A stretch of DNA of 64,000 nt from the NCBI GenBank assembly GCA_964516325.1, contig CAZFAP010000001.1:2221-66220 (forward strand), given 5' to 3'. The position numbers and the translations under genes were made by a program. The DNA comes from an uncultured Verrucomicrobiota bacterium. Its GTDB lineage: Bacteria; Auribacterota; JABMQX01. Below, piece by piece: positions 20,696-35,401 of this stretch. Below the pieces are notes generated by a model. It searched no databases. It worked only from the letters and a program-made list of their open reading frames with translations, and was not told the origin of the DNA. Positions within the stretch are counted from its first letter, which is position 1. The number at the start of each line of letters is the position of its first letter.

Positions 20696-21430
20696 TCATC
20701 GCCTCGCGCGCCGCTCGAAGGCCCAACCCGCAAGTAGCCAACCGAGAGCCACAAAAGCTGCCGCGACGATCAGGGGTATAAGCGGGGTAGGAAAATAGCA
20801 CCGCCCCGAAATGCCAACCCGCAACAATTCCACAACATGCGTCAAAGGGGATGCTATGGCAACCGGCTTGAGCCAGAAGGGAAGTTTCTCAAGCGGCATA
20901 AACACGCCGCTCAGAAAAAGACCTGGAAACCGGATGAAATTGAGCAGGGTCATTGCCTCGAATACCTCCCTCACGGAAACCGCAGCGACGATGCCAAGCA
21001 GAGAGAACGCCGCTCCTCCGAGCAGCAAACCGGCTGTGAAGAGAACCGGATTGCCAAGACGCAGCCTAAGAAACACGGAAAAACCCAGAGTGAGAGCAAC
21101 CGACGTCGCAATCCCGTACAGGGCGGCGCTGGTTGCCTTGCCGAGGACAATGGTTCGATGCGACACCGGAGCGAGGAGCAGACGCTGCAAGGTGCCGGAC
21201 CGCTTCTCGAAAGTGACGACGATGGCGGCCATAGACGTGTTGCCAAAAAGAAGCGTCATGGCAATGGCCCCCGGCGCAACAACCAGATACCTCGATGGGT
21301 CCCTGAGATACACGGCGAGCATCAGGACAGCCGGAAAAAGAAGCCCCCATGTGACCAGCGGGGGCTTGCCATAGTAACTCTCGATGTCCTTCCGGCTGAT
21401 AAAAAGGGCGCGGACCACCTGAGTCATCAC
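20696..21430 (-). CDS. ABC-2 type transporter permease
   Basis: Six TM helices; the ATGA overlap with the upstream ATPase gene indicates an operon. Confidence 0.75.
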   Translation of the reverse strand: MMTQVVRALFISRKDIESYYGKPPLVTWGLLFPAVLMLAVYLRDPSRYLVVAPGAIAMTLLFGNTSMAAIVVTFEKRSGTLQRLLLAPVSHRTIVLGKATSAALYGIATSVALTLGFSVFLRLRLGNPVLFTAGLLLGGAAFSLLGIVAAVSVREVFEAMTLLNFIRFPGLFLSGVFMPLEKLPFWLKPVAIASPLTHVVELLRVGISGRCYFPTPLIPLIVAAAFVALGWLLAGWAFERRARR

Positions 21431-22512
21431 ACCGTCTCCGCTGTCGAAGAATCTGCGCCGAGTATCGTCATAAAGGCGTCCTCGAGGCTGGGGGTAACGC
21501 TCGCGATTTGGAGGAGCCGAACGCCGTGTTTTTCGGCGAGCACGAGGAGCTGCATTACGGCTGCATGGGTGTCGGCAACCTCAAGTTTCCATTTGCCCTC
21601 CGCGAGGGTGGCCGACCGAATTGCGGGGCATAGCTCGAGCACGCTCGGCTGCGGCACTTCCCCCGAAAGAGTCACCGTCAGGTTCTTCCCTTTCTCCACT
21701 CGCTGCCGGACCTCTGCGGCTGTCCCTTCCGCAGCGATCCGCCCCTTGACGAGGATGAGAATGCGGTCGGACAGAGCCTCTGCCTCGGCGAGGTTGTGTG
21801 TCGTCAGAAAGACTGTTGTGCCGCTACGGCTGAGGTCGCGTATCAGGGATCGCAGCGCGCGTGCACTGAGAACGTCCAGCCCCGCCGTAGGCTCGTCCAG
21901 CAAAATGACCTCCGGGCAATGAACAAGAGCCGCCGCAACGGTCAAGCGGCGTTTCATCCCGCGGGATAGCGACTGGAATGGCATCCCGGCTCTGTCCGTC
22001 AAACCAAACGACTCAAGAAGAGAATCGGCTCTCCTCCCGCGCTCCGCGCGCGCCAAACCATATAGCTCCCCAAGGTATTCCAGATTCCTGCGGCACGAGA
22101 GCTCGGGATAGAGGTTAGACTCCTCTGGAACAACCCCGATGCGCTCCTTCACAGCAATAGGCTCCCGGCGGATGTCCAGCTCACACACATAGACCTCTCC
22201 CGCATCGGGTCGGAGCAGGCAAGAGAGAATGTTGATCGTCGTGGTCTTCCCCGCGCCGTTTGGCCCAAGATAACCCAACACTTCGCCCTTCCGGACCCTA
22301 AAACTGACATTTTCCAGGGCGCGCAGGTTGCCGTAGCTTTTGCAGAGTCCTGAGACGCGAACCACGCTGATACCGCCCTTCACTGCGGGTCCGATCACCT
22401 CCGCCTGGGCTTCTTGAGACACGGATGCTCTTTCACACTGCCGTGCCATTTCTTGACCTGCTCCGGTGAGCAGTCTTTTGGCGTCTTTCTCAGCTCGTTT
22501 GGGTTCCGACAC
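21427..22512 (-). CDS. ABC transporter ATP-binding protein
   Basis: Walker A GPNGAGKTT, signature LSRGMKRRLTVAAAL, Walker B ILLDEPTAGLD. Confidence 0.85.
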   Translation of the reverse strand: MSEPKRAEKDAKRLLTGAGQEMARQCERASVSQEAQAEVIGPAVKGGISVVRVSGLCKSYGNLRALENVSFRVRKGEVLGYLGPNGAGKTTTINILSCLLRPDAGEVYVCELDIRREPIAVKERIGVVPEESNLYPELSCRRNLEYLGELYGLARAERGRRADSLLESFGLTDRAGMPFQSLSRGMKRRLTVAAALVHCPEVILLDEPTAGLDVLSARALRSLIRDLSRSGTTVFLTTHNLAEAEALSDRILILVKGRIAAEGTAAEVRQRVEKGKNLTVTLSGEVPQPSVLELCPAIRSATLAEGKWKLEVADTHAAVMQLLVLAEKHGVRLLQIASVTPSLEDAFMTILGADSSTAETV

Positions 22513-22864
22513 CCTTTCTTCTCCTGGCGCATTGTCCTTCTCCTCTGGTTGTTGCGGCTGCTGTGCTTAGACAAGTGCCCCGTCCCATCCCGAATCGAAG
22601 GAAGTCGTCCACCCCTCTCCTCCATCTGGCAAGGCGGGTCTTGTTGAGACGATAATGCACGTAGTAACCCCGCCTCTCAGGTATAACGAGTCCCGCGTCC
22701 CTCAACACTCGCAGGTGCTGCGAGACCGCGCCCTGCGTCACACCGAGCCGTGCTGCAAGCGCGCCAACACATAGGGCCCGGTGGCTCAGAAGCTGAACGA
22801 TTCGCAGGCGCGCCGGGACCGAAAGAACTTTGAACAGACGCGCTGCTCTCTCAATTTTCGCCAT
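22490..22864 (-). CDS. ArsR/SmtB-family HTH transcriptional regulator
   Basis: ARLRIVQLL...CVGALAARLGVTQGAVSQHLRVLRDAGLV is a winged-helix motif. The gene overlaps the start of the ABC ATPase. Confidence 0.75.
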   Translation of the reverse strand: MAKIERAARLFKVLSVPARLRIVQLLSHRALCVGALAARLGVTQGAVSQHLRVLRDAGLVIPERRGYYVHYRLNKTRLARWRRGVDDFLRFGMGRGTCLSTAAATTRGEGQCARRRKGVGTQTS

Positions 22865-23220
22865 ACGAGAACTCCTTTAGTATCCGCTAATATACTAACA
22901 CGGTTCCCCGGGTTGTCGAGAGCAGAAATGCCAGGGCGCCTACTTTCCTTCGTCTCGCACATCATCCCGTGACCGCCTGTTAAGCCCAATGGGGACTCCG
23001 GACCTACGACACGCCATCGCTACCGGGTCGCCGTGCGACCGCTTTTCCAATACGCAAGGCAATCCCTCGCCTGTCCCCCCACCCAAAGAGGCGCCCCATT
23101 CCACGCTCCTTTCCTCAGGACAATGACGAATGACACCGCGCCGCTCCCCCCCAGGCAAAGGTTTCCCCCGCTTTCAGAAAAAACTGAAAAAAAGTCTTGA
23201 CACCCTCCCGGGCACCCGCC

Positions 23221-23243
23221 ATTATTGATAACGATTGCTAATA
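23221..23243 (+). promoter_or_regulatory. Candidate Fur/PerR box (autoregulatory operator) immediately upstream of the Fur-family gene
   Basis: ATTATTGATAACGATTGCTAATA is AT-rich and partly dyad-symmetric; it resembles GATAATGATAATCATTATC-type boxes. It is the only AT-rich patch in a GC-rich intergenic region. Confidence 0.3.
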
Positions 23244-23698
23244 TGAGAAAGCAAGTTGCGAAGAAGAATTATCGGATGACGCGCCAGCGGCAGATCATCC
23301 TCGAAGAGCTCAAGAAGGTCAAAACGCATCCGACGGCCGATGAGCTTTACGAAAGGGTTCGGAGGCGGCTGCCGCGGATTAGCCTGGGCACCGTGTACCG
23401 GAACCTCGATGTTCTCAGCCAGTTCGGCGCGATACAGAGACTCGATCTCGCGGGCGTGCAGCGGCGATTCGATGGAGAACCGGAAGCCCATTATCATGTG
23501 CGCTGCATCACGTGCGGGCGAGTGGACGATGTGTCGTTCGAGCCAATGCCGGGGCTTGAGCGCGGGCTCCGCGATTTGTGCGGTTACAAGGTCGTCGGAC
23601 ACAGACTGGAATTCATCGGCTTGTGTCCGAAGTGCCAGAAACGGAGAAGGCTCTCTCATTCGATAGGCGTCAAAACCGGATTTGCCCCCGGGGCATGA
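23243..23698 (+). CDS. Fur-family metalloregulator, probably a peroxide-responsive repressor (PerR-like)
   Basis: Fur-fold DNA-binding helix (TRQRQIILEEL), HxH metal-site residues and two CxxC pairs (CITCG, CPKC). It heads an island of rbr/sor/dfx/ferritin genes. Confidence 0.8.
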   Translation: MRKQVAKKNYRMTRQRQIILEELKKVKTHPTADELYERVRRRLPRISLGTVYRNLDVLSQFGAIQRLDLAGVQRRFDGEPEAHYHVRCITCGRVDDVSFEPMPGLERGLRDLCGYKVVGHRLEFIGLCPKCQKRRRLSHSIGVKTGFAPGA

Positions 23699-24108
23699 TG
23701 CGGCGCGGCGCCGCGCTCACTTCAATTCTTGCCTTATTGGTAGGAAAGCGAAGCGACGGTTGATCCAGATGGAGAGTGCCGAATCAAGGGATGTTTCCTG
23801 CGCCTTGGGCAGGGAACGACTATTCAGGTGCTGGCGAGTGGACCCATGGACATTCATGGTCCCCTGACGCGGGGCCCTTGGAAAATCGTTAAGTGTCCGG
23901 CAACGGCTGATCTTCCTCGGAACCAAAGATTGACTTTGGAGGTTTACAAAGTAAACATAAATTCTCCTGAGGAGTCGGGGGGTGAAACTTCATTGCTCAC
24001 CGTTCTTGACGCTAACTTGAGCAGGCCGTCGGGGTTGTCACAGTCCGAGGCGGTTTGCCAATGCAGTCCCGAACGGTGGAATGTGTCTTTCCGAAAGGAG
24101 GGAATACC

Positions 24109-24504
24109 ATGGCGGATTTGAGCGAGCGAATTCAAAAGGCGGACTGGAAAAAAGAGAAGCACGTGCCGGTCATCGAGGCGCCGGACCAGGTGAAGGCGGA
24201 TGAGCTTTTCGAGGTCAAGGTAACGCTTGGCAAGGAGATCGCTCATCCCAACACCACAGAACATCATATTCGCTGGATTTCTGTTTTCTTCCATCCCGAA
24301 GGGGGGAAGTTTAGCTTTGAGGTAGGCCACTTTGAATTTTCAGCGCACGGCGAGTCGGTTGACGGCCCGAACAAGGGACCCGTTTACACGCACCACGAAG
24401 TCAAAGCGTCATTAAAGATCAACAAGCCGGGAAGCCTGCACGCCCTTGCCTTGTGCAATATCCACGGGCTTTGGGAGTCGAGCAAGACAATCGCGGTGAG
24501 TTAG
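24109..24504 (+). CDS. Superoxide reductase, class II (neelaredoxin-type 1Fe-SOR)
   Basis: KHVPVIE, H-x5-H, CNIHGLW and the E...K motif; 131 aa from ATG 24109 with an AAAGGAGGG RBS. Confidence 0.85.
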   Translation: MADLSERIQKADWKKEKHVPVIEAPDQVKADELFEVKVTLGKEIAHPNTTEHHIRWISVFFHPEGGKFSFEVGHFEFSAHGESVDGPNKGPVYTHHEVKASLKINKPGSLHALALCNIHGLWESSKTIAVS

Positions 24505-24743
24505 CGGGGGTGTAATCGCCACGCTTTGCGCGTGCGAAGCCGCTTCCCTCGCCGTCGGCAGTCGTGGCATGGTGCAATTTCCCAATCGGCGGCTTTGCGA
24601 ACGTGACGTTCTGTCTGAGCCGACCCCGTGCTCTTGTTGAACGCGGATTGGTCTTGTCGGGAGGCGATGCTCCCTGATGTCGAGACGAATCCGGCGCCGA
24701 AAAGGATTTGCCAAAGTTTTGCTTCTGGAAAGGAGGTGCGGAG

Positions 24744-25106
24744 ATGCCTGAATTCCTGAATCCATTTAGTGGAGTGGTTCCCGGGCGCAAGCTCACTGTT
24801 CGCGAGCTGACACGGGCGATTCGCCTTGCCCTTTCTGCCGAGGAAGAGGCCGTCCATCTCTACGAGGCGCTTGCCGACGCCGCCGACAATGAACTGGCGA
24901 AGGCGGTCCTTCAGGACATAGCGGATGAGGAACGAGTCCATGCGGGAGAGTTCCAGCGCGTTCTGAAGATTCTCCTGCCTGACGAAGAGAAGTGGCTCGC
25001 GGACGGCGCCGCGGAGGTGGACGACATCGCCGAGAAGGTCAAAAAGGGCGAGCCTTCCTCGCCAGAGGGCAAGAAGGTCCCCACAGTCGGCGACATGAAA
25101 GAGTAG
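24744..25106 (+). CDS. Encapsulated ferritin-like protein (EncFtn-like cargo) with a putative C-terminal targeting peptide
   Basis: About 120 aa; paired ExxH diiron motifs (EEEAVHLYE, DEERVHAGEF); flexible Gly/Pro/Ser tail ending PTVGDMKE; lies immediately upstream of the encapsulin shell gene. Confidence 0.6.
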   Translation: MPEFLNPFSGVVPGRKLTVRELTRAIRLALSAEEEAVHLYEALADAADNELAKAVLQDIADEERVHAGEFQRVLKILLPDEEKWLADGAAEVDDIAEKVKKGEPSSPEGKKVPTVGDMKE

Positions 25107-25196
25107 GTCCATTTTATTTAGGAGGGGCTTGGGAGAATCAGCGAGGCTAAGATTGCAAAGCCTCCGAAAGAGAAAATTGAATCAGGAGGATACGCA

Positions 25197-26009
25197 ATGT
25201 CTGAGAAATTTCTGCATCGCGGAGATGCTCCGTTCGACGAAAAAGTCTGGGGAAAAATTGATGAAGCGGTTGTGGGCGCCGCGAAAAGCCAGTTGTCCGC
25301 TCGGCGAGTCTTGCACGTCGAGGGCCCCTATGGACTCGGACTGAAATCTATCCCCGGTCCGGAGTCGGAAGTAGGGGAGACCGCCGTTGAAGGCGCGACC
25401 GTGACGGCGAGTCTCGCCGTTCCGGTCGTTGGCATTCAAAGCTCGTTTCGCCTGTCCGCACGAGACATCGCGGCATTTGAGGAAACGGGCCTCCCCTTCG
25501 ATCTGCGGGGCGCGGTCGCCGCAGCGATCGCCTGCGCAAAACAAGAGGATGCCCTCCTCTTTCACGGTTCCAAGGCGCTCGGTGTCCAGGGATTGCTTAC
25601 CGCTAAGGGAACGCAGCAGCGGAAGCTCAAGCCGTGGACGGAAGTCGGCGTCGCCGTGGATGAGCTCATTCAGACGGTCAACGTTCTCGACGGCGTCGGA
25701 TTTCATGGGCCCTATTCGCTGGCTCTGGCGCCATCGCTCTACAATCTCTTGTTCCGACGGTATCCCCAGGGCGACAAGACCGAGATCGAGCACCTGCGAC
25801 TGCTGGCGACCGACGGCATAGTCAAGGCCCCCGCGATCAAGTCTGGCGGCGTGCTGTTGGCCTCCGGCCGGCAGTTCGCAGCAATTGTCCTGGGACAGGA
25901 CATCCTGACGTCCTTCGTGGGTCCCGCCGGTCGGGATTATGAGCTCTTAGTTTCGGAGAGTGTCGCGCTTCGGTTGGTCGAGCCGGCGGCGGTGTGCGTC
26001 CTGAAGTAG
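25197..26009 (+). CDS. Family-1 encapsulin shell protein (HK97 fold, linocin-M18-like)
   Basis: 270 aa. Clear homology to the T. maritima encapsulin: FLHRGDAPFDEKVWGKIDE...RRVLHVEGPYG, GPYSLAL, VLGQD...SF. Confidence 0.85.
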   Translation: MSEKFLHRGDAPFDEKVWGKIDEAVVGAAKSQLSARRVLHVEGPYGLGLKSIPGPESEVGETAVEGATVTASLAVPVVGIQSSFRLSARDIAAFEETGLPFDLRGAVAAAIACAKQEDALLFHGSKALGVQGLLTAKGTQQRKLKPWTEVGVAVDELIQTVNVLDGVGFHGPYSLALAPSLYNLLFRRYPQGDKTEIEHLRLLATDGIVKAPAIKSGGVLLASGRQFAAIVLGQDILTSFVGPAGRDYELLVSESVALRLVEPAAVCVLK

Positions 26010-26242
26010 AGCTTCGCAACCATCGGTAGAAAGTGAGCCTGTGTCGGAGGAATTGTGCCGACACTACGAATATGCGAGGCTCCCGGGCGTGCTGCTCGCC
26101 AGCGGCTATTGCTTCGCGCGGCTCGACCGCGCAATTCGTCGGGCATGTAATCGTATGGCATACCTGCCGGAAGATATTTCCAGCACGCTCCGGCGTGAGC
26201 GCAGAAAACAAAAACTGGGTGCAGGAGGGACAGTAAAACACC

Positions 26243-26815
26243 ATGGGACTCAGAGGGTCGAAAACCGAGAAGAACGTCCTGACCGCGTTTGCGGGGGAAT
26301 CCCAGGCGAGAAATCGCTATACCTTCTTCGCCAGCCAGGCGAGGAAGGAAGGGTTCGTGCAGATCGCCGACATATTTGAGGAGACCGCCAATCAGGAAAA
26401 GGAGCACGCCAAGCGGTTCTTCCAACTCCTCCAGGGCGGTGACGTGGAGATTACAGCCGCGTTCCCTGCGGGCATCATAGGGACGACCGCCGAGAACCTC
26501 CGAGCGGCTGCCGCAGGCGAGGGACACGAGTGGGGGCAATTGTACCCGTCCTTCGCAAGCGTCGCGCGGCAGGAGGGCTTCGAGGAAATTGCCAGGATGT
26601 TCGATGCCATCGCCGTCGCTGAAAAGCAGCATCAGAAACGGTACCTCGGGCTGCTCGCGAACGTGGAGGCGGGCGTCGTCTTCAAGAAAAAGAGAAGCGT
26701 CGTCTGGCGATGCAGAAACTGCGGCTATGTCCACGAAGGCGCCGAGGCGCCCGAACAATGTCCAGCGTGTGCCCATCCCCAGGCGTTTTTTGAACTGTTG
26801 TGCGAGAACTGGTGA
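26243..26815 (+). CDS. rbr: Rubrerythrin (diiron four-helix bundle plus a C-terminal rubredoxin-like domain)
   Basis: ExxH diiron motifs and a C-terminal CRNCGY...CPAC FeCys4 site. Confidence 0.9.
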   Translation: MGLRGSKTEKNVLTAFAGESQARNRYTFFASQARKEGFVQIADIFEETANQEKEHAKRFFQLLQGGDVEITAAFPAGIIGTTAENLRAAAAGEGHEWGQLYPSFASVARQEGFEEIARMFDAIAVAEKQHQKRYLGLLANVEAGVVFKKKRSVVWRCRNCGYVHEGAEAPEQCPACAHPQAFFELLCENW

Positions 26816-26890
26816 GTCCCTCTTGCTTCGAGGCTCGCGGGGTTCGGTCTTGTGGCTTTGGTCGAACAACCGTAGCACGGGGAGGAAACG

Positions 26891-27346
26891 ATGAGTAAGT
26901 TCAGCTCCGCAGACGAAATTTTGGATTTCGCCGTCGCCAGGGAGGAGGAATCCGTTCGATTCTACTCCGCCTTGGCGGCTAAGGTGCAGAAGCCCCCTAT
27001 GCGAGAAGTCTTCAACGATTTCTCGCGCGAAGAAGAGGGGCACAAAGCAAGACTTCAGGCCATCAAACGTGAGAAGGTCCTGGTGCCCGCAACAGAGAAA
27101 ATTCAGGACCTCAAGGTCGCGGACTACCTGGTTGATGTCCAGCCCGCGACGGATATGGAATATCAGGACGCACTGATCCTGGCGATGAATAAGGAGAAAT
27201 CCTCGTTCCGGCTCTATATGGACCTCGCGGCGAGGACCGACAATCAGAGACTCCGGTCAACCTTACTCGCCCTCGCACAGGAAGAGGCGAAGCATAAGTT
27301 GCGGTTCGAGGTCGAGTACGACGACCACATCCTGAAACAGGATTGA
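26891..27346 (+). CDS. Ferritin-like / rubrerythrin-family diiron protein (no rubredoxin domain)
   Basis: REEESVRFY and EEEGHKARL are ExxH-type motifs; 151 aa; RBS GGGAGGAAACG. Confidence 0.7.
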   Translation: MSKFSSADEILDFAVAREEESVRFYSALAAKVQKPPMREVFNDFSREEEGHKARLQAIKREKVLVPATEKIQDLKVADYLVDVQPATDMEYQDALILAMNKEKSSFRLYMDLAARTDNQRLRSTLLALAQEEAKHKLRFEVEYDDHILKQD

Positions 27347-27421
27347 TGGAGCGACGAAATAGAGAGCTTGGCCGTTTGGCCCGAAGCGCAATGGGCCTGC
27401 AATAGGCGAAGGGTGGGGCGA

Positions 27422-27511
27422 ATGATTTACAGGTACCTCCTCGGCGCCATCATTGGCGCCGCTATTGGCGGAATCGTTGGGCACCTCGGAAAATCCGCCG
27501 GCAGCACCTGA
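27422..27511 (+). CDS. Putative 29-aa glycine-zipper membrane peptide
   Basis: MIYRYLLGAIIGAAIGGIVGHLGKSAGST; 3 nt downstream a second glycine-zipper opens the next gene. A small peptide without a domain hit. Confidence 0.3.
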   Translation: MIYRYLLGAIIGAAIGGIVGHLGKSAGST

Positions 27512-27514
27512 CCC

Positions 27515-27955
27515 ATGTCCGGCAGCCCCACGGGTGGGGTTCTCATTGGAGCTGTCATCGGAATTCTCATAGCGTCGGGTTTGGGCAGCCCGCGAGAAGA
27601 CCAGCCCCCGTCGCGGTACTTGACGGAACTCAAAACGGAAAACGACCTCAGTCAGGTGCTGGCAAGCAACGAGGTGGTCGTAGTGGACTTCTACTCAGAC
27701 CGTTCTCTGCCGAGCAAGAAGCTCAGACCGACCATCAACGAGCTTGCGGCGCAATACGCTGGCAGGGTTGCTGTCGTTGCGGTCAACCTCGGCAGATTTC
27801 CAGGTCTGCGAAGTCAGTACAACATCGCAGACGTTCCCGAAGTGAGGATATTCAAGGCGGGTAAGCTTGAGAGGAGCATCTCCCGGTCAAAACCGAAAAG
27901 GGTTTACGAGGAGGCGCTCGATAGCTTGTTGCCCGCGCGGACCGAAGCGAAATAG
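27515..27955 (+). CDS. Thioredoxin-fold protein with an N-terminal glycine-zipper TM helix, lacking the CxxC active site
   Basis: VVVDFYSDRS...VAVNLG...VPEVRIF follows the thioredoxin beta-alpha-beta order but contains no cysteine. Confidence 0.55.
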   Translation: MSGSPTGGVLIGAVIGILIASGLGSPREDQPPSRYLTELKTENDLSQVLASNEVVVVDFYSDRSLPSKKLRPTINELAAQYAGRVAVVAVNLGRFPGLRSQYNIADVPEVRIFKAGKLERSISRSKPKRVYEEALDSLLPARTEAK

Positions 27956-28002
27956 TCGCGCCTGGCGTTTGGCGTGCAGGATATAGAGCAAGGAGCCAGA
28001 GC

Positions 28003-28821
28003 ATGAAGGGGTTCAGAAGCGCGATTTCCGGGTTCATTCTCGTCGTCACTGCGGTCGGGCACGTCCTGGCCAACGAGGGGCACGCGCACGCCGTCTCCTG
28101 GGGTAGCCTCGTCGTGCCATTCGGGATCGCAACCCTTTCGCTGGCGGTCCTAACCGCCTTGCTCGGACTGCTAATGCCGAAGAACCGCAAGCTCTTGTTC
28201 AAGTGGCACAGGCGGTTCGCCGTGGCGACCCTCGTCGCAGGTGTCTGTCATGCGACGCTCGTCCTCCTGTTCCACGAGGAAGGAGAGGTTCAAAAGGAGG
28301 AACCTATGAAAGAGCGAAAAGATGTCGTGACCATGAAAGGCAATCCGTTGACCTTGCTTGGGGATGAGATAAAAGAAGGCGACGCGGCCCCCGATTTCGT
28401 CGTGATTGACAACAGCCTATCTCCGGTGAAGTTCTCATCGTTCCGCGGCAAAGTGTGCATCATCGCGTCCGTTCCTTCTCTCGACACGTCGGTCTGCGAT
28501 CTCGAAACGCGAAAATTCAACGAAGAGGCTGGGCGGCTGGGACCGGACGTGGTGATCCTGACAATAAGCATGGACCTGCCATTCGCCCAGAAACGTTGGT
28601 GCGGAGCAGCCGGTGTGACGAGGGTCCAGACCTTTTCCGACCACCGCGACGCTTCCTTCGGCAAAGCGTACGGCGTCCTCATCAAGGAGCTGCGGTTGTT
28701 GACGAGGGCGGTCTTCGTCGTGGACCGGCAGGGCACAATCCGCTACGTCGAACCGGTCAGTGAGATGACCAAAGAGCCGGACTACGAGGCTGCTCTGCAA
28801 GCCGTGCGCCTGTTACTCTGA
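28003..28821 (+). CDS. tpx: Thiol peroxidase (Tpx, atypical 2-Cys peroxiredoxin) fused in frame to a ~100-aa N-terminal 3-TM His-rich segment. An internal SD+ATG at 28306 would give a canonical soluble Tpx.
   Basis: The Tpx core is DFVVIDNSLSPVKFSSFRGKVCIIASVPSLDTSVCDLETRKF. Both 28003 and 28306 are preceded by AAGGAG(G) RBS sequences. Confidence 0.8.
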   Translation: MKGFRSAISGFILVVTAVGHVLANEGHAHAVSWGSLVVPFGIATLSLAVLTALLGLLMPKNRKLLFKWHRRFAVATLVAGVCHATLVLLFHEEGEVQKEEPMKERKDVVTMKGNPLTLLGDEIKEGDAAPDFVVIDNSLSPVKFSSFRGKVCIIASVPSLDTSVCDLETRKFNEEAGRLGPDVVILTISMDLPFAQKRWCGAAGVTRVQTFSDHRDASFGKAYGVLIKELRLLTRAVFVVDRQGTIRYVEPVSEMTKEPDYEAALQAVRLLL

Positions 28822-28864
28822 CGACACGCCTGCCGCGGATTCGCCGCGAAAAGGAGCTTGGACC

Positions 28865-30379
28865 ATGAGAAATCTCCTTCTCACGTTGGCTTTTCTCGCA
28901 ATCGTCAGGGTATGCGCCGCCGACGAAAGCCTCCCAACCGCCGACGCTCCCGTCAGCAAAGAAACGAAAAGCTGCCTCGTCTGCCACAATTCCGTCAGCC
29001 CCGGAATTGTTGCCGATTGGAGGAAGAGCCTTCATTCCATGACCAGCCCGAGCGAAGCTCTCAAGAAGGAGCGTCTCCAGAGGAGGATTTCCGTTGAGAA
29101 GGTGCCGGAAAACCTGGCTGGCGTCGTCGTGGGGTGCGCCGAGTGTCACAATTTGCATCCCGAAAACCATAAAGATACATTCGAGCACGGCGGCTACAAA
29201 ACGCACGTGGTGGTGACTCCCGCCGACTGCGCGACCTGTCATCCAACGGAGGCAGATCAGTTTCGGGACAATTTGATGTCCCACGCGCACCTCAACCTTC
29301 GCAATAATTCCCTTTATCACGAGCTAAGCGATTCGATTAACGGCATTCATTCCTTCCGGGGGATGGTGACGGCCGTCGCGGCGCCCGATCCCGAAACCAG
29401 CCACGATTCCTGCTTCTATTGCCACGGGACCGCCGTGGAGGTCAGGGGCATCCATACGAGGGAGACCGCTCTCGGCGAAATGGAGTTTCCGACCCTGTCC
29501 GCCTGGCCGAATCAGGGTGTGGGGCGGTTAAATCCCGACGGAACCATGGGCTCTTGTGCTGCCTGTCACACCCGGCACCGCTTCTCCGTCGAGATGGCGA
29601 GAAAGCCCTATACGTGCGCCGAGTGCCACGAGGGACCGGACGTGCCCGCATACAAAGTCTACATGGTGAGCAAACACGGCAATCTCTTCTCTTCCCAGGG
29701 CGACGAATGGAACTTCGACGCGGTCCCGTGGGTTATAGGAGAGAACTTCACCGCTCCGACCTGTGCGGCGTGCCACGCCAGCCTTGTCGTGAGCGAGAGC
29801 GGCGAGGTTGTGGCACAGCGGACGCATCGCATGAATGATCGTCTCCCGTGGAGGATTTTCGGTTTGATTTACGCGCACCCTCATCCCAAATCCCCTGATA
29901 CCACCATCGTCAAGAACAAAGCAGGCTTGCCGCTGCCAACCGAACTCACCGGCGAGCCGGTCGCCGAGTTCCTCATAGATGCGAACGAGCAAGAAAAGAG
30001 GCTTGAGGCGATGCAAAACGTCTGCCTCGCGTGCCACGCCAAGGGGTGGGTGACAGGACAATTCGCACGCTTCGAGAACACCATTAAGACCACCAATCAG
30101 ATGACCCTCACCGCGACGCAAATACTGAAGACAGCCTGGGAAAAGGGCGCCGCGAAATGCGCAGCGCAGAACGATAGCATCTTCAATGAATCCATCGAGA
30201 AAAAGTGGGTTGAGCAGTGGCTCTTTTTTGCCAACTCGACGCGTTTTGCCTCCGCCATGATGGGCGCCGATTACGGCGTATTCGCCAACGGACGCTGGTA
30301 TCTGAGCAGGAATATTCAAGACATGGCGGATTGGCTTGCGCTCAAGCTTGAGACAATTCAAGGCGAGAAGAGACAGTGA
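28865..30379 (+). CDS. Secreted octaheme c-type cytochrome (HAO/ONR-like multiheme family)
   Basis: Signal peptide plus 8 CxxCH motifs: CLVCH, CAECH, CATCH, CFYCH, CAACH, CAECH, CAACH, CLACH. Confidence 0.85.
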   Translation: MRNLLLTLAFLAIVRVCAADESLPTADAPVSKETKSCLVCHNSVSPGIVADWRKSLHSMTSPSEALKKERLQRRISVEKVPENLAGVVVGCAECHNLHPENHKDTFEHGGYKTHVVVTPADCATCHPTEADQFRDNLMSHAHLNLRNNSLYHELSDSINGIHSFRGMVTAVAAPDPETSHDSCFYCHGTAVEVRGIHTRETALGEMEFPTLSAWPNQGVGRLNPDGTMGSCAACHTRHRFSVEMARKPYTCAECHEGPDVPAYKVYMVSKHGNLFSSQGDEWNFDAVPWVIGENFTAPTCAACHASLVVSESGEVVAQRTHRMNDRLPWRIFGLIYAHPHPKSPDTTIVKNKAGLPLPTELTGEPVAEFLIDANEQEKRLEAMQNVCLACHAKGWVTGQFARFENTIKTTNQMTLTATQILKTAWEKGAAKCAAQNDSIFNESIEKKWVEQWLFFANSTRFASAMMGADYGVFANGRWYLSRNIQDMADWLALKLETIQGEKRQ

Positions 30380-30468
30380 CTCCCAGTGCATGTCCGGTTC
30401 AGGAAACAATCGGGCTGCGACAGCGCAATACCTGGCATCTATATCGTGAGTAGGAAAGGAGTGAAAAA

Positions 30469-30843
30469 ATGGCGCAGAGATTCCAGATTTACAAGTGCGA
30501 GATTTGTGGCAATATTGTGGAGGTCCTCCACGAGGGCAAAGGAGAGCTGGTCTGCTGCGACCAGCCCATGAAGCTTTTCGTCGAGAATACGGTGGATGCC
30601 TCCCGCGAAAAGCATGTCCCCGTCATCGAAAAGACGGATCGCGGTGTGAAGGTCAAGGTCGGCAGTCTTCCTCACCCGATGGAGCCAAAGCACTACATCG
30701 AGTGGATTGAGGTGATTGCCGACGGAAAAGTCTATCGCCAGTTCCTTAAGCCCGGAGACGCGCCTGAAGCCGCTTTTGTAATTCAGGCAACGCAGATCAC
30801 GGCAAGAGAGTACTGTAACATTCACGGTCTATGGAGGGGGTGA
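30469..30843 (+). CDS. dfx: Desulfoferrodoxin (class I 2Fe superoxide reductase)
   Basis: N-terminal desulforedoxin CEICGN...CC, then KHVPVIE...H...H...CNIHGLW. Confidence 0.9.
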
Positions 30844-30848
30844 CTACC

Positions 30849-31346
30849 ATGATTAACGAGAGAATTGAAAAGGCGTTTAACGAGCAGATCAAGAACGAAC
30901 TGGAATCCGCCTACATCTACCTGTCCATGGCGGCCTATTTCCACTCGCAAAACCTCGACGGAATGGCGCAGTGGATGCGCGTTCAGGCGAAAGAGGAAGT
31001 GGGGCATGCCATGAAGTTCTTCGACCACATCCGAGACCGCCAGGGGCGGGTCACCTTGTTGCCGCTTACCCCGCTGAAGACTGACTGGTCTTCGCCTCTG
31101 GAAGCTTTTCAGGACGCTTATGAACACGAGCAGTTCATCACCGGGAAGATCAATGAACTTGTCAAACTTGCCGACGACGAGAGCGACCCGCCCGCCAGCG
31201 TGCTCCTCCAGTGGTTCGTGAACGAGCAGGTCGAGGAGGAAGCGAACACCTCCAAGACCGTCCAGACGCTGGAGCTCGTGGGCGATTCCGGCCCTGGGTT
31301 GATCATGCTCGATCGGGAACTCGGCAAGAGGGAGTTCTCAGGTTAA
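30849..31346 (+). CDS. Non-haem bacterial ferritin
   Basis: The ferroxidase-centre pattern E...Y...EExGH...E...QxxE is readable in the sequence (ELESAYIYLSMAAYF, KEEVGHAMKF, VNEQVEEE). Confidence 0.85.
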   Translation: MINERIEKAFNEQIKNELESAYIYLSMAAYFHSQNLDGMAQWMRVQAKEEVGHAMKFFDHIRDRQGRVTLLPLTPLKTDWSSPLEAFQDAYEHEQFITGKINELVKLADDESDPPASVLLQWFVNEQVEEEANTSKTVQTLELVGDSGPGLIMLDRELGKREFSG

Positions 31347-31357
31347 CAGGAGTGAAT

Positions 31358-31849
31358 ATGAGCATCCATTTCAATGCAGACGAAATCTTCGAAATGGCCG
31401 AGCAGATCGAGAGGAACGGCGCCAACTTCTACCGCAAAGTCGCTGGAACGGCGGACGAAGCGGAAGTCCGGCGTGTCCTCCTCGATCTCGCCGCCATGGA
31501 AGACGAGCACGAGAAGACTTTCGCCGCCATGCGGGCGCAGTTGTCCGCGGAACAGCGCATCTCCATCACATTCGACCCCGAAGGGGAGGCGGCGATGTAC
31601 CTCCAAGCGATGGCGGATGGATATGTCTTTGACGTGCGCACCGACCCTTCCGAGCTTTTGACCGGAGAGGAGGGTCTCGCGGACATTCTCCACACCGCCA
31701 TCGGGCTTGAGAAAGACTCCATCGTCTTTTACCTCGGTATCCGAGATTTGGTCCCGGAGAAGTTCGGCAAGGGGAAGATCAATGACATAATCAAGGAAGA
31801 AATGGGGCACATCACCACCTTGAGCCAGAAGCTGGCCTCGCTGAATTGA
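31358..31849 (+). CDS. Rubrerythrin-family ferritin-like diiron protein
   Basis: Paired E-x2-H helices (AAMEDEHEKTF, IKEEMGHITTL); 163 aa; the track ORF 31211.. is over-extended. Confidence 0.65.
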   Translation: MSIHFNADEIFEMAEQIERNGANFYRKVAGTADEAEVRRVLLDLAAMEDEHEKTFAAMRAQLSAEQRISITFDPEGEAAMYLQAMADGYVFDVRTDPSELLTGEEGLADILHTAIGLEKDSIVFYLGIRDLVPEKFGKGKINDIIKEEMGHITTLSQKLASLN

Positions 31850-31907
31850 GGGCGGCCCCTTCTCGCCTCAGGCGTGGTCAGCTATTCGAATCGGAGGATA
31901 CGGGAAC

Positions 31908-32630
31908 ATGGAAGCATTATCTCGTCGCGACGTGTTTAGACTGCTTGGCGCCTCCGCCGCATGGGCGTCCGCGATCAGTTTCTCGGAGAGGTCCGCGAAA
32001 GCCGAAACATCGGAAGCTCTCAGCATCGCGCCCTACAAGCTCCCCGATCTGCCCTATCCGGTTGACGCTCTCGAACCGCACCTCGACGCACACACGTTGA
32101 CCATCCATCACGACAAGCATCACGCTGCCTACGTGCAGGGCTTGAATGCAGCGCTCGTCGGATTGCAGGAGGCTCGAAAGAAAGGAGACTTTGCGGCAGT
32201 CCAGGCTCTATCCGGTGCGCTCGCGTTCCACGGGTCCGGGCACCTGCTGCACACGCTCCACTTCGCCAACCTTCACCCGAAGCCAGCCAGGCCGGCGGGC
32301 GCCTTGTCGGGCGCGATCGAGGCGCAGTTTGGCAGCCTCGATGCCTTCATCGCGCACCTTGTCGCCGCCGCGAATACCGTTGCGGGCAGCGGCTGGGGGA
32401 TTCTCGCTTACGAACCTGTCGGGCGACGCCTGCTGGTGCTTCAGGTTGAGAAGCATGAGAACCAGCTCGTGTGCGGCGCCATTCCTTTGCTCGTGATTGA
32501 TGTCTGGGAGCATGCCTATTACCTGAGCTATCAGAACCGGCGAGCGGATTATGTGAAGGCCATCATGAACGTCATTCACTGGGACGAAGTTGCCCGTCGG
32601 TTCGACGAGGCGAGGCGCATTCACGGCTGA
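31908..32630 (+). CDS. Fe/Mn superoxide dismutase with a Tat signal peptide
   Basis: SRRDVFRLLGASAAWASA Tat motif; SOD motifs HHDKHH and DVWEHAYY. Confidence 0.9.
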   Translation: MEALSRRDVFRLLGASAAWASAISFSERSAKAETSEALSIAPYKLPDLPYPVDALEPHLDAHTLTIHHDKHHAAYVQGLNAALVGLQEARKKGDFAAVQALSGALAFHGSGHLLHTLHFANLHPKPARPAGALSGAIEAQFGSLDAFIAHLVAAANTVAGSGWGILAYEPVGRRLLVLQVEKHENQLVCGAIPLLVIDVWEHAYYLSYQNRRADYVKAIMNVIHWDEVARRFDEARRIHG

Positions 32631-32721
32631 ACTTGCACGGCGGTGTTTTAGAATCGGGGCGGCTCGCAGCGGTCCATGCGAAAAGTCTGCCGCGGGTTCT
32701 CAACGGTTCCCGGAGGACAAC

Positions 32722-34398: not shown

Positions 34399-34415
34399 CT
34401 CAAGACGAGGGCAAA

Positions 34416-35267: not shown

Positions 35268-35401
35268 AAGGCCTTCGCTGCAACAGGACGGCGTGTTCGC
35301 TGGCGGATAGAAACGGCAAAGCTCGGGCATGGGTTTTCATCTGCTCGTCGCCGACGCCCAGCAGCCGAGCTTGAGCAAGAGCGCAAATCAGAATTGAGAG
35401 A

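What the first reader, a model, noticed from the sequence alone, without database searches (positions are those of the whole stretch)
24744..26009. Family-1 encapsulin nanocompartment with an EncFtn-like ferritin cargo, followed directly by rubrerythrin
The 270-aa protein aligns by eye with the T. maritima encapsulin (FLxR..AP..EK.W..ID......QL..R..V.VEGPYG; GPY.L; LGQD). The upstream 120-aa protein has the paired ExxH motifs of encapsulated ferritins and a flexible C-terminal tail ending PTVGDMKE that could serve as the targeting peptide. Encapsulin/EncFtn is a known iron-mineralising compartment. Its placement between SOR and rubrerythrin under a PerR-like regulator is a useful natural context for the compartment's role in anaerobe peroxide defence.
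Basis: partly seen in the sequence, partly recalled or inferred. Interest (0 to 1): 0.6.

Follow-up and report, generated by a model that had tools for sequence, protein, structure and literature searches.

The report
Encapsulin iron compartment in oxidative-stress island
This is an ordinary two-gene encapsulin system, a protein shell plus a small ferritin-like enzyme with a tail that loads it into the shell, sitting inside a long cluster of anaerobe oxygen-defence genes; the kind is well known, so it is a correct but unsurprising call.

Summary

**Shell.** Window 25197-26009 (+) encodes a 270-aa family-1 encapsulin shell. It scores 226 bits on NCBIfam encap_f1 (cut-off 100) and 224 bits on Pfam Linocin_M18. 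The AlphaFold model has an HK97 fold (TM 0.85 to solved shells).

**Cargo.** Window 24744-25106 (+) encodes a 120-aa EncFtn-type cargo.
- It passes the NCBIfam EncB_fam model (105.5 bits, cut-off 90).
- It carries the ferroxidase residues E33, Y40, E63 and H66.
- It has a disordered linker and a C-terminal tail, VPTVGDMKE.

**Evidence that the tail is a targeting peptide.**
- It matches the M. xanthus EncC/EncB peptide (LTVGSL).
- 88 of 120 close homologues carry it.
- In 12 of 12 loci with an intact shell gene, a tailed cargo lies directly upstream.
- Three tail-less homologues have no shell gene within 5 kb.

- The closest characterised relatives are M. xanthus EncA/EncC, not T. maritima.
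- The first "ExxH" (E35..H38) is a clade-specific extra, not a canonical ferroxidase motif.
- Shell size (24 nm or larger) cannot be decided.
- Rubrerythrin and the 151-aa ferritin-like protein have no targeting tail.
- PerR control is plausible but no operator was found.

The kind of system is already well described, so this is a new member of a known kind.

The parts
24744..25106 (+). EncFtn-type (EncB/EncC-like) ferritin-like cargo, 120 aa. Predicted layout: helices at aa 19-46, 50-77 and 81-100, a flexible linker at about aa 101-111, and a targeting peptide at aa 112-120.
   Evidence: - Family models: NF058679 EncB_fam 105.5 bits (cut-off 90) and Pfam Rubrerythrin 34.7 bits (cut-off 22.8). 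TIGR04535 (78 against 125) and PF22277 (19 against 27) fall below their cut-offs.
- Best solved relative: M. xanthus EncC 7s8t, 63 bits alone and 75 bits with the family profile.
- AF2 model: pLDDT 86.7. Foldseek top hits are the P. furiosus EncFtn domain, EncC and EncB.
24840..24941 (+). Codons of the ferroxidase-centre residues: E33 (24840-24842), Y40 (24861-24863), E63 (24930-24932) and H66 (24939-24941). The clade-specific E35/H38 pair also lies in this span.
   Evidence: The residues align to the conserved E / Y / ExxH of EncC, EncB and the P. furiosus EncFtn domain. Their spacing matches Rru-EncFtn E32/Y39/E62/H65 (PMC11202242). E33, E35, H38, Y40, E63, H66 and E69 are invariant in 120 of 120 homologues.
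25077..25103 (+). C-terminal targeting peptide VPTVGDMKE.
   Evidence: - 88 of 120 homologues end in [IV]-P-[TS]-[VI]-G-x-[LM]-K-x after a variable linker.
- It matches the M. xanthus EncC PEKRLTVGSLRR, EncB PLTVGSL and IMEF TVGSL peptides.
- A tailed cargo is always directly upstream of a shell gene. Tail-less homologues are not.
- It is the only ORF in the window with this motif at its C-terminus.
25197..26009 (+). Family-1 encapsulin shell protein, 270 aa, HK97 fold. The N-helix is at aa 15-30 and the E-loop at about aa 45-85.
   Evidence: - Family models: NF041155 225.9 bits (cut-off 100) and PF04454 224.1 bits.
- PDB sequence hits: EncA and D. quercicolus 148 bits, Q. thermotolerans 136 bits, T. 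maritima 72 bits.
- AF2 model pLDDT 91.2, with TM 0.81-0.87 to solved shells.
- EncA targeting-peptide contact residues correspond to K30, R36 (invariant), H40, D206 and D235 (invariant).
23225..23698 (+). PerR-like Fur-family regulator. The true start may be ATG 23243.
   Evidence: - PF01475 102.6 bits. The best NCBIfam models are PerR types but fall below their cut-offs (113.9 against 180).
- The best solved relative is B. subtilis PerR 2fe3 (93 bits, against 75 or less for Fur proteins). The positions of H37, D85, H91, H93, D104 and the four Cys are all matched.
24109..24504 (+). 1Fe superoxide reductase (neelaredoxin type), 131 aa.
   Evidence: PF01880 117.5 bits and TIGR00332 112.5 bits (cut-off 61.9). 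It has no N-terminal desulforedoxin domain.
26243..26815 (+). Rubrerythrin, 190 aa, starting 233 nt after the shell gene. It has no targeting tail.
   Evidence: NF045767 302.1 bits (cut-off 200), aligned end to end (3-190 on 4-194 of 194). It ends ...FFELLCENW.
26891..27346 (+). Stand-alone four-helix diiron (rubrerythrin-like) protein, 151 aa. It has no targeting tail.
   Evidence: PF02915 53.7 bits. It ends ...EVEYDDHILKQD, with no TVGxLK motif. It is syntenic in L001 and L015.
27515..32630 (+). Rest of the co-directional oxidative-stress island:
- Cys-free thioredoxin-fold protein (27515-27955)
- membrane-anchored thiol peroxidase (28003-28821)
- octaheme cytochrome c (28865-30379)
- 2Fe-SOR / desulfoferrodoxin (30469-30843)
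- classical ferritin (30831-31346)
- rubrerythrin-like protein (about 31358-31849)
- Fe/Mn SOD with a Tat-like signal (31908-32630)
   Evidence: Pfam and NCBIfam hits and sequence inspection.

Best explanation
The two genes encode a classical family-1 encapsulin iron-sequestration compartment.

Proposed mechanism:
1. The 270-aa HK97-fold protein self-assembles into an icosahedral shell.
2. The 120-aa two-helix ferritin-like protein assembles through symmetric dimers. Each dimer builds one di-iron ferroxidase centre from E33, E63 and H66, with Y40 nearby.
3. The cargo's C-terminal peptide VPTVGDMKE, at the end of a flexible linker, docks into the pocket formed by the shell's N-helix and P-domain. 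The cargo is therefore packaged during assembly.
4. Fe(II) enters through the shell pores and is oxidised at the ferroxidase centre. Fe(III) mineral is retained by the shell, which keeps iron away from peroxide.

Context: the module is embedded in a ~9.4-kb co-directional island (23225-32630). The island holds a PerR-like regulator, two superoxide reductases, rubrerythrins, a thiol peroxidase, a classical ferritin and an SOD. Its most likely role here is to remove Fenton-active iron when an oxygen-sensitive bacterium of the Planctomycetota/Verrucomicrobiota group meets O2 or H2O2.

Shown here: family membership, folds, catalytic residues, tail conservation, the link between tail and shell gene, and gene context.

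Inferred: assembly, decamer formation, loading, ferroxidase activity, and co-regulation by PerR.
For: **Shell**
- Curated models are passed with wide margins.
- There are 37 solved encapsulin relatives.
- The AF2 model (pLDDT 91) superposes on encapsulin shells at TM 0.81-0.87.
- NCBI already names homologues in its MAG annotation 'family 1 encapsulin nanocompartment shell protein'.

**Cargo**
- EncB_fam is passed.
- Profile hits are to EncC, the P. furiosus EncFtn domain and EncB only.
- The predicted fold is two long helices, a third helix and a disordered tail.
- E33, Y40, E63 and H66 are invariant and align with the ligands that were mutated in Rru-EncFtn.

**Loading**
- The tail matches LTVGSL-type peptides that have been seen bound to EncA.
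- Four of the five EncA polar contact positions are conserved or conservatively replaced.
- 12 of 12 loci with an intact shell gene have a tailed cargo directly upstream: the window, L001-L004, L012 and L014-L019.
- 3 of 3 tail-less homologues (79-87% identical over the core) have no shell gene within 5 kb.

**Context**
- Searches identify the neighbouring genes.
- The same island is syntenic in L001 and L015.
- A comparable one (shell, Fur-family regulator, rubrerythrin, peroxiredoxin, desulfoferrodoxin, ferritin) occurs in a Coatesbacteria MAG (L014). An SOR flanks the pair in L018.
- In P. furiosus, rubrerythrin tubules physically enclose EncFtn-encapsulin particles under O2 stress (10.1101/2025.03.19.643997).
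Against: - Nothing here tests assembly, loading or activity.
- Two EncFtn-specific models are below their cut-offs (TIGR04535 78 against 125; PF22277 19 against 27). The cargo therefore belongs to the EncB/EncC branch rather than the R. rubrum or T. maritima branch.
- The gaps of 239 nt (SOR to cargo) and 233 nt (shell to rubrerythrin) leave room for separate promoters.
- No sigma-70-like promoter, PerR box or shared operator was found upstream of the cargo gene.
- About half of the related cargo-shell pairs sit among unrelated genes (L002-L004, L012, L017, L019). The stress context is therefore lineage-specific and not intrinsic to the module.
- The organism also has a classical ferritin (30831-31346), so the compartment is not its only iron store.
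Confidence: 0.9

Rival explanations
1. The pair is a self-contained iron-storage module that merely happens to lie in the oxidative-stress island. On this view it has its own promoter, responds to iron rather than peroxide, and is not part of a PerR regulon.
For: - The cargo-shell pair is the only part conserved across lineages. L002-L004, L012, L017 and L019 have unrelated neighbours.
- The module is flanked by long gaps of 239 and 233 nt.
- No PerR-type box or shared motif lies upstream of it.
- L001 keeps the island but has no PerR match in the ~4 kb upstream.
Against: - Oxidative-stress neighbours recur in three separate lineages: window/L001/L015, L014 and L018.
- All genes from 23225 to 37004 are co-directional.
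- Tail-less relatives of the cargo also sit among rubrerythrin, SOR, SOD and ferritin genes.
Confidence: 0.3
2. The cargo is chiefly a peroxide-consuming enzyme. It would either use H2O2 rather than O2 as the oxidant for Fe(II), as Dps does, or act as a rubrerythrin-like peroxidase. The shell would then confine a peroxide-driven reaction rather than serve mainly as an iron store.
For: - The only Pfam model passed is Rubrerythrin (34.7 bits).
- The host gene set is that of an anaerobe, in which O2 is scarce (SORs, rubrerythrins, 2-oxoacid:ferredoxin oxidoreductase).
- An SOR, which produces H2O2, is the immediate neighbour.
- Published EncFtn assays were done aerobically (PMC11202242).
- The invariant E35/H38 pair is absent from characterised EncFtns.
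Against: - All solved relatives are ferroxidases working inside iron-mineralising shells.
- There is no rubredoxin domain and no obvious electron-donor partner for a peroxidase cycle.
- Andreas & Giessen treat 'rubrerythrin'-labelled cargos as functionally the same as Flp ferroxidases.
Confidence: 0.15
3. The 270-aa protein is the major capsid protein of a degraded HK97-type prophage, and the small upstream protein is unrelated to it.
For: There is a weak sub-threshold hit to PF09950 Major_capside (26.2 bits against 26.8). Encapsulins share the HK97 fold.
Against: - No terminase, portal, protease or tail genes were found among the genes scanned (22490-37004). All of those are redox, iron or metabolic genes. 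The two ORFs just upstream (20696-22512) look like an ABC transporter by eye and were not scanned.
- The encapsulin-specific equivalog model is passed at more than twice its cut-off.
- The conserved partner carries a targeting peptide.
Confidence: 0.01

Closest known systems
Myxococcus xanthus EncA shell with EncB/EncC ferritin-like cargo (PDB 4pt2, 7s20, 7s2t, 7s8t, 7s5c)
   Same: - It is the best characterised relative of both proteins. The shell scores 148 bits with about 31% identity and TM 0.85. The cargo scores 63-75 bits with 42-45% identity to EncC.
- Both use a TVG-x-L type C-terminal targeting peptive followed by a basic residue.
- Both cargos have the conserved N-terminal NPF motif, and E/Y/ExxH ferroxidase residues.
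- Four of the five shell residues that contact the peptide are retained.
   Different: - Here there is one cargo, encoded directly upstream. In M. xanthus, three cargos (EncB, EncC, EncD) are loaded into one shell.
- The E-loop is 9 residues shorter than in EncA.
- The Leu before TVG is Pro here, preceded by I or V. EncA D38 corresponds to H40.
- The cargo has H38 where EncC and EncB have Asn.
- The host is an anaerobe-type PVC bacterium, not an aerobic myxobacterium.
   Same: - It is a family-1 shell with a decameric ferritin-like cargo encoded upstream, in an anaerobe.
- The shell aligns without gaps over residues 4-136, so the E-loop has the same length.
- The AF2 model is closer in rmsd to T=1 conformers (3.0-4.7 A) than to full T=3/T=4 chains (6-7 A).
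   Different: - Identity is only 22-26% and the score 72 bits.
- The T. maritima targeting peptide (GGDLGIRKL) is a different type.
- The model built for that cargo type (TIGR04535) is not passed.
Pyrococcus furiosus EncFtn-encapsulin fusion (PDB 2e0z, 5n5e) and its association with rubrerythrin tubules
   Same: - Its EncFtn domain is the second-best solved relative of the cargo (46.8 bits alone, 61.5 bits with the family profile, about 34% identity).
- The host is an anaerobe with SOR and rubrerythrin.
- A functional link between rubrerythrin and the encapsulin under O2 stress has been proposed from cryo-EM.
- Flp-fusion encapsulins are often next to rubrerythrin or ferritin-like genes.
   Different: In P. 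furiosus the cargo is fused to the shell and has no targeting peptide. Here there are two separate genes and a peptide. It is archaeal rather than bacterial.
Stand-alone EncFtn-like proteins ('s-FLP', e.g. Nitrosomonas europaea NE0167, PDB 3k6c)
   Same: They share the two-helix EncFtn fold and lack a C-terminal targeting peptide. They resemble the tail-less homologues of this cargo found in L007, L009 and L010.
   Different: - The window protein does have the peptide and a shell partner.
- NE0167 is a distant relative (20-22 bits).
- The tail-less proteins found here are 79-87% identical to the window cargo over the core.

Membership tests
Family-1 (classical) encapsulin shell | Passes a curated family model | tested here: met
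   NF041155 encap_f1 (equivalog) 225.9 bits against cut-off 100, covering 6-269 of 270 aa. PF04454 Linocin_M18 224.1 bits against 24.3.
Family-1 (classical) encapsulin shell | HK97 fold with A-domain, P-domain, E-loop and an N-terminal helix, and no fusion or insertion domain | tested here: met
   AF2 model pLDDT 91.2 and pTM 0.86. Foldseek TM 0.81-0.87 to EncA and to B. methanolicus, Q. thermotolerans, T. maritima and Mycobacterium shells. At 270 aa there is no room for an extra domain.
Family-1 (classical) encapsulin shell | Not part of a phage: no terminase, portal, protease or tail genes nearby | tested here: met
   All scanned genes from 22490 to 37004 are regulators or redox, iron or metabolic genes. 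The two ORFs just upstream (20696-22512) were read by eye only.
Family-1 (classical) encapsulin shell | Dedicated cargo gene in the operon, carrying a C-terminal targeting peptide | tested here: met
   The cargo gene ends 90 nt upstream. Its tail is conserved, and it co-occurs with the shell gene in 12 of 12 loci.
Family-1 (classical) encapsulin shell | Self-assembly into a closed icosahedral shell of defined T number | not testable with these tools
   Indirect hints conflict. Sequence is nearest to T=3/T=4 shells. E-loop length equals that of T. maritima T=1, and the model's rmsd is lower to T=1 conformers.
Encapsulated ferritin (EncFtn / Flp cargo), EncB/EncC branch | Passes a curated family model | tested here: inconclusive
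   NF058679 EncB_fam is passed (105.5 bits against 90; full length 1-118 on 1-117). TIGR04535 ferrit_encaps is not (78.1 against 125). PF22277 EncFtn-like is not (19.1 against 27). This shows membership of the EncB/EncC branch, not of the R. rubrum or T. maritima branch.
Encapsulated ferritin (EncFtn / Flp cargo), EncB/EncC branch | Two long antiparallel helices plus a shorter third helix (half of a four-helix bundle) | tested here: met
   AF2 predicts helices 19-46, 50-77 and 81-100 with pLDDT 86-99 in the core. Foldseek top hits are 5n5e, 7s8t, 7s5c, 3k6c and 5da5.
Encapsulated ferritin (EncFtn / Flp cargo), EncB/EncC branch | Ferroxidase-centre ligands: Glu on helix 1, ExxH on helix 2, and a nearby Tyr (Rru E32, E62, H65, Y39) | tested here: met
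   E33, E63, H66 and Y40 have identical spacing, align to EncC, EncB and the P. furiosus domain, and are invariant in 120 homologues. The residue roles are taken from PMC11202242.
Encapsulated ferritin (EncFtn / Flp cargo), EncB/EncC branch | C-terminal targeting peptide after a flexible linker | tested here: met
   The linker (aa 101-114) has low pLDDT (59-65) and is variable in sequence and length. The terminal [IV]P[TS][VI]Gx[LM]K is conserved. It matches the EncC and EncB peptides.
Encapsulated ferritin (EncFtn / Flp cargo), EncB/EncC branch | Annular decamer; ferroxidase activity; no iron storage without the shell | not testable with these tools
   Only single-chain prediction is available, and there are no assays.
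PerR (peroxide-sensing Fur-family repressor) | Regulatory metal site H37, D85, H91, H93, D104 and structural Zn(Cys)4 (B. subtilis numbering, recalled from the PerR literature) | tested here: met
   All nine positions are matched in the alignment to 2fe3, which is the best solved relative (93 bits; best Fur 75 bits).
PerR (peroxide-sensing Fur-family repressor) | Passes a curated PerR model | tested here: not met
   The best hit is NF052545 at 113.9 bits against cut-off 180. NF047406 scores 98.2 against 200. The protein should be called 'PerR-like'.
PerR (peroxide-sensing Fur-family repressor) | Operator sites in front of the regulated genes | tested here: not met
   - No B. subtilis-type PerR box lies within the island, allowing up to 3 mismatches.
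- The only candidates are a unique palindrome at 23942-23956 upstream of SOR, which is not conserved in L001 or L015, and ATTATTGATAA at the regulator's own promoter.
- Nothing was found upstream of the cargo gene.

The most novel reading that the evidence does not exclude
In this clade of cargos, the invariant E35-x-x-H38 pair on helix 1 may form a Glu/His metal site. It occupies the position of the EncFtn 'C site' (Rru E31/E34), where characterised EncFtns have Asn at the His position. Together with the SOR and rubrerythrin neighbourhood, this could mark a peroxide-driven ferroxidase adapted to anaerobes, in which H2O2 rather than O2 oxidises Fe(II). The near-identical tail-less siblings, which have no shell gene within 5 kb, would then be free-standing versions of the same enzyme. 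That would make this clade a natural system for asking what encapsulation adds.
Probability: 0.15. Interest if true: 0.55.

Novelty: new member of a known kind. Interest (0 to 1): 0.25.

Why it matters
The finding adds an uncultured Planctomycetota/Verrucomicrobiota-group example to a well-described class. Flp/EncFtn encapsulins have already been catalogued in 23 bacterial phyla.

It has two modest points of value:
- It is a clean bacterial case in which the shell gene sits directly beside rubrerythrin and superoxide reductase genes. This parallels the physical rubrerythrin-encapsulin association recently seen in P. furiosus.
- The clade offers matched tailed and tail-less cargo variants. These could be used to test what the shell contributes.

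Tried and rejected
1. **RNA structure in the 90-nt cargo-shell spacer.** The window folds no better than shuffles (z = 0.18). The related loci give z from -1.6 to +1.0 with no common structure. Rejected.
2. **PerR operator.**
   - The B. subtilis consensus, with up to 3 mismatches, gives no site in the island.
   - Repeat search of 22850-26260 gave only short two-copy matches of the kind expected by chance.
   - Inspection of the upstream regions of the window, L001, L015 and other loci showed no shared box in front of the cargo gene.
3. **Secondary cargos.** I scanned every stop-to-stop ORF of 50 aa or more in the window for [TS][VIL]Gx[LMI][KR]. Only the cargo carries it at a genuine C-terminus. 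The two other C-terminal hits (57662-57940 and 63329-63583) are in short unsupported ORFs. Neither rubrerythrin nor the 151-aa protein has a tail.
4. **Rfam scan of the whole window.** It found one tRNA only.
5. **T number.** Sequence similarity, E-loop length and model rmsd point in different directions. Left open.
6. **Counting gains and losses of the tail.** An NJ tree of the 100-aa core places the tail-less forms mostly together but interleaved with tailed forms. The resolution is too low to count events.
7. **Source organism.** The nearest named relatives are Verrucomicrobiota, Brocadiia and Pirellulales MAGs.
8. **Prophage capsid reading.** Rejected; see the rival explanations.
Full report
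**1. What is in the sequence**

- The cargo gene runs from ATG 24744 to TAG 25104-25106 (120 aa), preceded by AAGGAGGTG at 24730-24738.
- The shell gene runs from ATG 25197 to TAG 26007-26009 (270 aa), preceded by CAGGAGG at 25183-25189.
- The mechanically longest ORF for the small gene starts at TTG 24708. Homologues begin at the MPEF methionine (M in 96% of 120 sequences), so 24744 is the start.

**2. The shell**

*Family and fold.*
- The 270-aa protein scores 225.9 bits on NCBIfam NF041155, 'family 1 encapsulin nanocompartment shell protein' (equivalog, cut-off 100). It scores 224.1 bits on Pfam Linocin_M18.
- It matches 37 distinct solved encapsulin sequences.
- A database search finds over a thousand homologues, mostly 269-273 aa. 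Several of them are already named family-1 encapsulin by NCBI in Planctomycetota, Brocadiia, Sedimentisphaerales and Chloroflexi MAGs.
- An AlphaFold2 model built on 41 of these has mean pLDDT 91.2. It superposes on solved shells at TM 0.81-0.87, so the HK97 fold is confirmed.

- M. xanthus EncA and the D. quercicolus shell score 148 bits, and Q. thermotolerans 136 bits, at 30-33% identity.
- T. maritima scores 72 bits at 22-26% identity.

*Particle size.* The evidence conflicts.
- The nearest sequences form T=3 or T=4 shells.
- The E-loop is 9-10 residues shorter than in those shells (gaps).
- It aligns without any gap to the T. maritima T=1 protein across residues 4-136. Its length and identity agree with the PDB hits.
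- The model's rmsd is 3.0-4.7 A to T=1 conformers but 6-7 A to complete T=3/T=4 chains.
- E-loop orientation is the main difference between T=1 and larger shells (PMC11664910). EncA itself makes both T=1 and T=3 shells depending on cargo.
- I therefore leave the T number open.

**3. The cargo**

*Family and fold.*
- The 120-aa protein passes NCBIfam NF058679, 'EncB family encapsulin nanocompartment ferritin-like cargo protein' (105.5 bits, cut-off 90, aligned end to end).
- It also passes Pfam Rubrerythrin (34.7 bits, cut-off 22.8).
- It falls below TIGR04535 (78 against 125) and PF22277 EncFtn-like (19 against 27).
- Its best solved relative is M. xanthus EncC. It scores 63 bits alone and 75 bits with a 44-sequence family profile.
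- Next come the P. furiosus EncFtn domain and EncB. R. rubrum EncFtn shows up only in the fold search, not at sequence level.
- The AlphaFold2 model (pLDDT 86.7) has helices 19-46, 50-77 and 81-100, then a low-confidence stretch, then a short terminal turn. Its Foldseek hits are EncFtn structures.

*Catalytic residues.*
- On these alignments E33, Y40, E63 and H66 fall on the conserved Glu, Tyr and ExxH. Their spacing is exactly that of R. rubrum E32, Y39, E62 and H65, the residues whose mutation reduces or abolishes ferroxidase activity (PMC11202242).
- All four are invariant in the 120 closest homologues.

*One correction.*
- E35 corresponds to the conserved Glu34/Asp34 of the EncFtn 'C site'.
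- H38 replaces an Asn found in EncC, EncB and the P. furiosus domain.
- H38 is nevertheless invariant in this clade. This is a small clade-specific feature of unknown meaning.

**4. The tail is a targeting peptide**

Three independent lines support this.

*(a) Motif.* VPTVGDMKE matches the TVG-x-L core of the peptides of M. xanthus EncC (PEKRLTVGSLRR) and EncB, and of the IMEF cargo. It does not match the T. maritima (GGDLGIRKL) or R. rubrum (SLGIGSLK) types. This agrees with the shell's nearest relatives.

*(b) Conservation pattern.* In 88 of the 120 closest homologues, a linker of variable length and composition is followed by a terminal [IV]-P-[TS]-[VI]-G-x-[LM]-K-x. The Gly is invariant and the Lys is present in 89%.

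*(c) Co-occurrence.*
- In every locus examined with an intact shell gene, a tailed cargo lies directly upstream. These are the window, L001-L004, L012 and L014-L019, twelve in all.
- L013 has a tailed cargo next to only a 55-residue remnant of a shell gene.
- The three tail-less homologues examined (P0026, P0050, P0116; 100-106 aa; 79-87% identical over the core) have no shell gene within 5 kb.

*The shell side of the interaction.* The residues of EncA reported to contact the peptide are R28, R34, D38, D213 and D243. They correspond here to K30, R36 (invariant), H40, D206 (D or E in 38 of 41) and D235 (invariant).

*Other candidate cargos.*
- Only this one ORF in the whole window carries the motif at a real C-terminus.
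- Rubrerythrin aligns end to end with its family model and ends ...FFELLCENW. The 151-aa four-helix protein ends ...EYDDHILKQD. Neither has a linker or peptide.

**5. Context**

The pair lies in a long co-directional cluster:

| Coordinates | Gene product |
|---|---|
| 23225-23698 | PerR-like regulator |
| 24109-24504 | 1Fe-SOR |
| 24744-25106 | cargo |
| 25197-26009 | shell |
| 26243-26815 | rubrerythrin (302 bits, cut-off 200) |
| 26891-27346 | stand-alone diiron four-helix protein |
| 27515-27955 | thioredoxin-fold protein without any cysteine |
| 28003-28821 | thiol peroxidase with a ~100-aa N-terminal membrane domain |
| 28865-30379 | octaheme cytochrome c |
| 30469-30843 | desulfoferrodoxin |
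| 30831-31346 | classical ferritin |
| about 31358-31849 | second rubrerythrin-like protein |
| 31908-32630 | Fe/Mn SOD with a Tat-like signal |
| 32590-35267 | 2-oxoacid:ferredoxin oxidoreductase |
| 35402-36211 | ZIP transporter |
| 36192-37004 | flavodoxin-like reductase |

*The regulator.*
- Its best solved relative is B. subtilis PerR (93 bits, against 75 or less for Fur proteins).
- It matches all five regulatory-site residues and the four zinc cysteines. The residue list is from my knowledge of the PerR literature.
- It does not reach any curated PerR cut-off.

*The island in other genomes.*
- It is syntenic in a Verrucomicrobiota MAG (L001; 75-94% identity for the core genes SOR to rubrerythrin) and in L015.
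- A Coatesbacteria MAG has cargo, shell, Fur-family regulator, rubrerythrin, peroxiredoxin, desulfoferrodoxin and ferritin in a row (L014).
- L018 has ferredoxin, cargo, shell and SOR.
- L002-L004, L012, L017 and L019 have the pair among unrelated genes.
- The two-gene module is therefore the conserved unit. The stress context recurs in roughly a third of the lineages sampled.
- The tail-less relatives also sit among rubrerythrin, SOR, SOD and ferritin genes. The link to oxidative stress thus belongs to the ferritin-like protein family as such.

**6. Regulation**

- The gaps around the module are long: 239 nt before the cargo gene and 233 nt after the shell gene.
- The consensus scan finds no promoter-like site in front of the cargo gene and no convincing terminator after the shell gene.
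- No PerR-type box occurs in the island.
- Upstream regions are not conserved between loci.
- Two local features may be operators:
  - a perfect 15-nt palindrome, GTTTACAAAGTAAAC (23942-23956), lies just downstream of a TTGACT -35-like hexamer about 150 nt upstream of SOR. It is unique in the window and absent from L001 and L015;
  - ATTATTGATAA overlaps the -10 of the regulator's own promoter and is shared with L015.
- Neither feature touches the encapsulin genes. Co-regulation is therefore inferred from adjacency and co-orientation only.

**7. Mechanism, and what is shown against what is inferred**

*Shown:* family membership of both proteins, their folds, the catalytic residues, the peptide and its genomic coupling to the shell, and the neighbourhood.

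*Inferred from the characterised relatives:*
- icosahedral assembly;
- a cargo decamer with di-iron centres at dimer interfaces;
- peptide docking to the N-helix/P-domain pocket;
- Fe(II) oxidation, and retention of the mineral by the shell.

The physiological reading is removal of Fenton-active iron during O2 or H2O2 exposure of an anaerobe. It fits the island and fits the P. furiosus observation that rubrerythrin tubules enclose EncFtn-encapsulin particles under O2 stress.

**8. Novelty**

- Ferritin-like (Flp/EncFtn, including 'rubrerythrin'-annotated) cargos are the second largest family-1 cargo class and are known from 23 bacterial phyla.
- A dual role in iron homeostasis and oxidative-stress resistance has been proposed, and rubrerythrin neighbours have been noted for the archaeal fusion systems (PMC8346489).
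- This locus is therefore a new member of a known kind.
- The points that go slightly beyond the textbook are the invariant H38, the matched tailed and tail-less variants, and the direct shell-rubrerythrin adjacency in bacteria.
- Interest is low to moderate (0.25).

Noticed in passing
L007/L008 5001-5309; L009 5001-5321; L010 5001-5303 (L011 2476-2778): Tail-less homologues of the cargo (100-106 aa, 79-87% identical over the core) end just after helix 3. They have no encapsulin gene within 5 kb, yet they sit among rubrerythrin, desulfoferrodoxin, ferritin, SOD and peroxiredoxin genes. 32 of the 120 closest homologues are of this kind.
   Followed up: partly
L013 5001-5369 and 5804-5953: A tailed cargo gene (VPTVGDMKE ending) is followed by only a 55-residue remnant of a shell gene (aa 12-66, 64% identity). 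This is either a decaying encapsulin locus or an assembly artefact.
   Followed up: no
window 24846-24857 (codons E35-H38 of the cargo): His38 is invariant in all 120 closest homologues, whether tailed or tail-less, and forms E35-x-x-H38. EncC, EncB and the P. furiosus EncFtn domain have Asn at that position. It may form a Glu/His variant of the EncFtn 'C site'.
   Followed up: partly
window 23924-23956: A TTGACT -35-like hexamer is embedded in CAAAG...CTTTG and followed by a perfect 15-nt palindrome, GTTTACAAAGTAAAC, about 150 nt upstream of the SOR gene. The palindrome is unique in the window (0 mismatches) and is not conserved in L001 or L015, which keep only the TTGACTTTG part.
   Followed up: partly
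window 23197-23245; L015 about 3040-3076: The regulator's own promoter (TTGACA, 17 nt, CATTAT) overlaps ATTATTGATAA, which is shared with the Fur-family gene of L015. The start codon lies within 0-17 nt of the -10 element. This suggests a leaderless or nearly leaderless transcript and possible autoregulation.
   Followed up: no
window 27515-27955: A thioredoxin-fold protein (Pfam Thioredoxin 49 bits) has an N-terminal membrane anchor and no cysteine at all. The CGPC position reads SLPS, so it cannot be a redox-active thioredoxin.
   Followed up: partly
window 28003-28821: A thiol peroxidase (NF001808 205 bits) is fused to a ~100-aa His-rich N-terminal membrane domain. The L015 counterpart carries Pfam DUF6132 at that end.
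   Followed up: no
window 28865-30379: An octaheme cytochrome c (eight CxxCH motifs, signal peptide, Multi-haem_cyto 74 bits, weak similarity to hydrazine dehydrogenase) is conserved in synteny with the peroxidase genes in L001 and L015 (71-74% identity). Its role in an oxidative-stress island is unexplained.
   Followed up: no
window 30469-32630 and 35402-37004: The island continues with desulfoferrodoxin, a classical ferritin, a second rubrerythrin-like protein and a Tat-signal Fe/Mn SOD. After a 2-oxoacid:ferredoxin oxidoreductase come a ZIP transporter and a flavodoxin-like reductase. This resembles the L007 island that holds a tail-less EncFtn-like gene.
   Followed up: partly
L018 4277-4468; L009 4744-4938: A small 4Fe-4S ferredoxin gene lies directly upstream of the EncFtn-type gene in one tailed locus and one tail-less locus. 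This is reminiscent of the ferredoxins associated with IMEF encapsulins. The window has no such gene.
   Followed up: no
L017 5827-10680: Directly downstream of the shell gene is a RiPP-like cluster: PqqD, a transglutaminase-like protein, three 41-42-aa peptides and a B12-binding radical SAM enzyme. It is probably unrelated to the encapsulin.
   Followed up: no
window 42356-42441: The only Rfam hit in the window is one tRNA gene.
   Followed up: no
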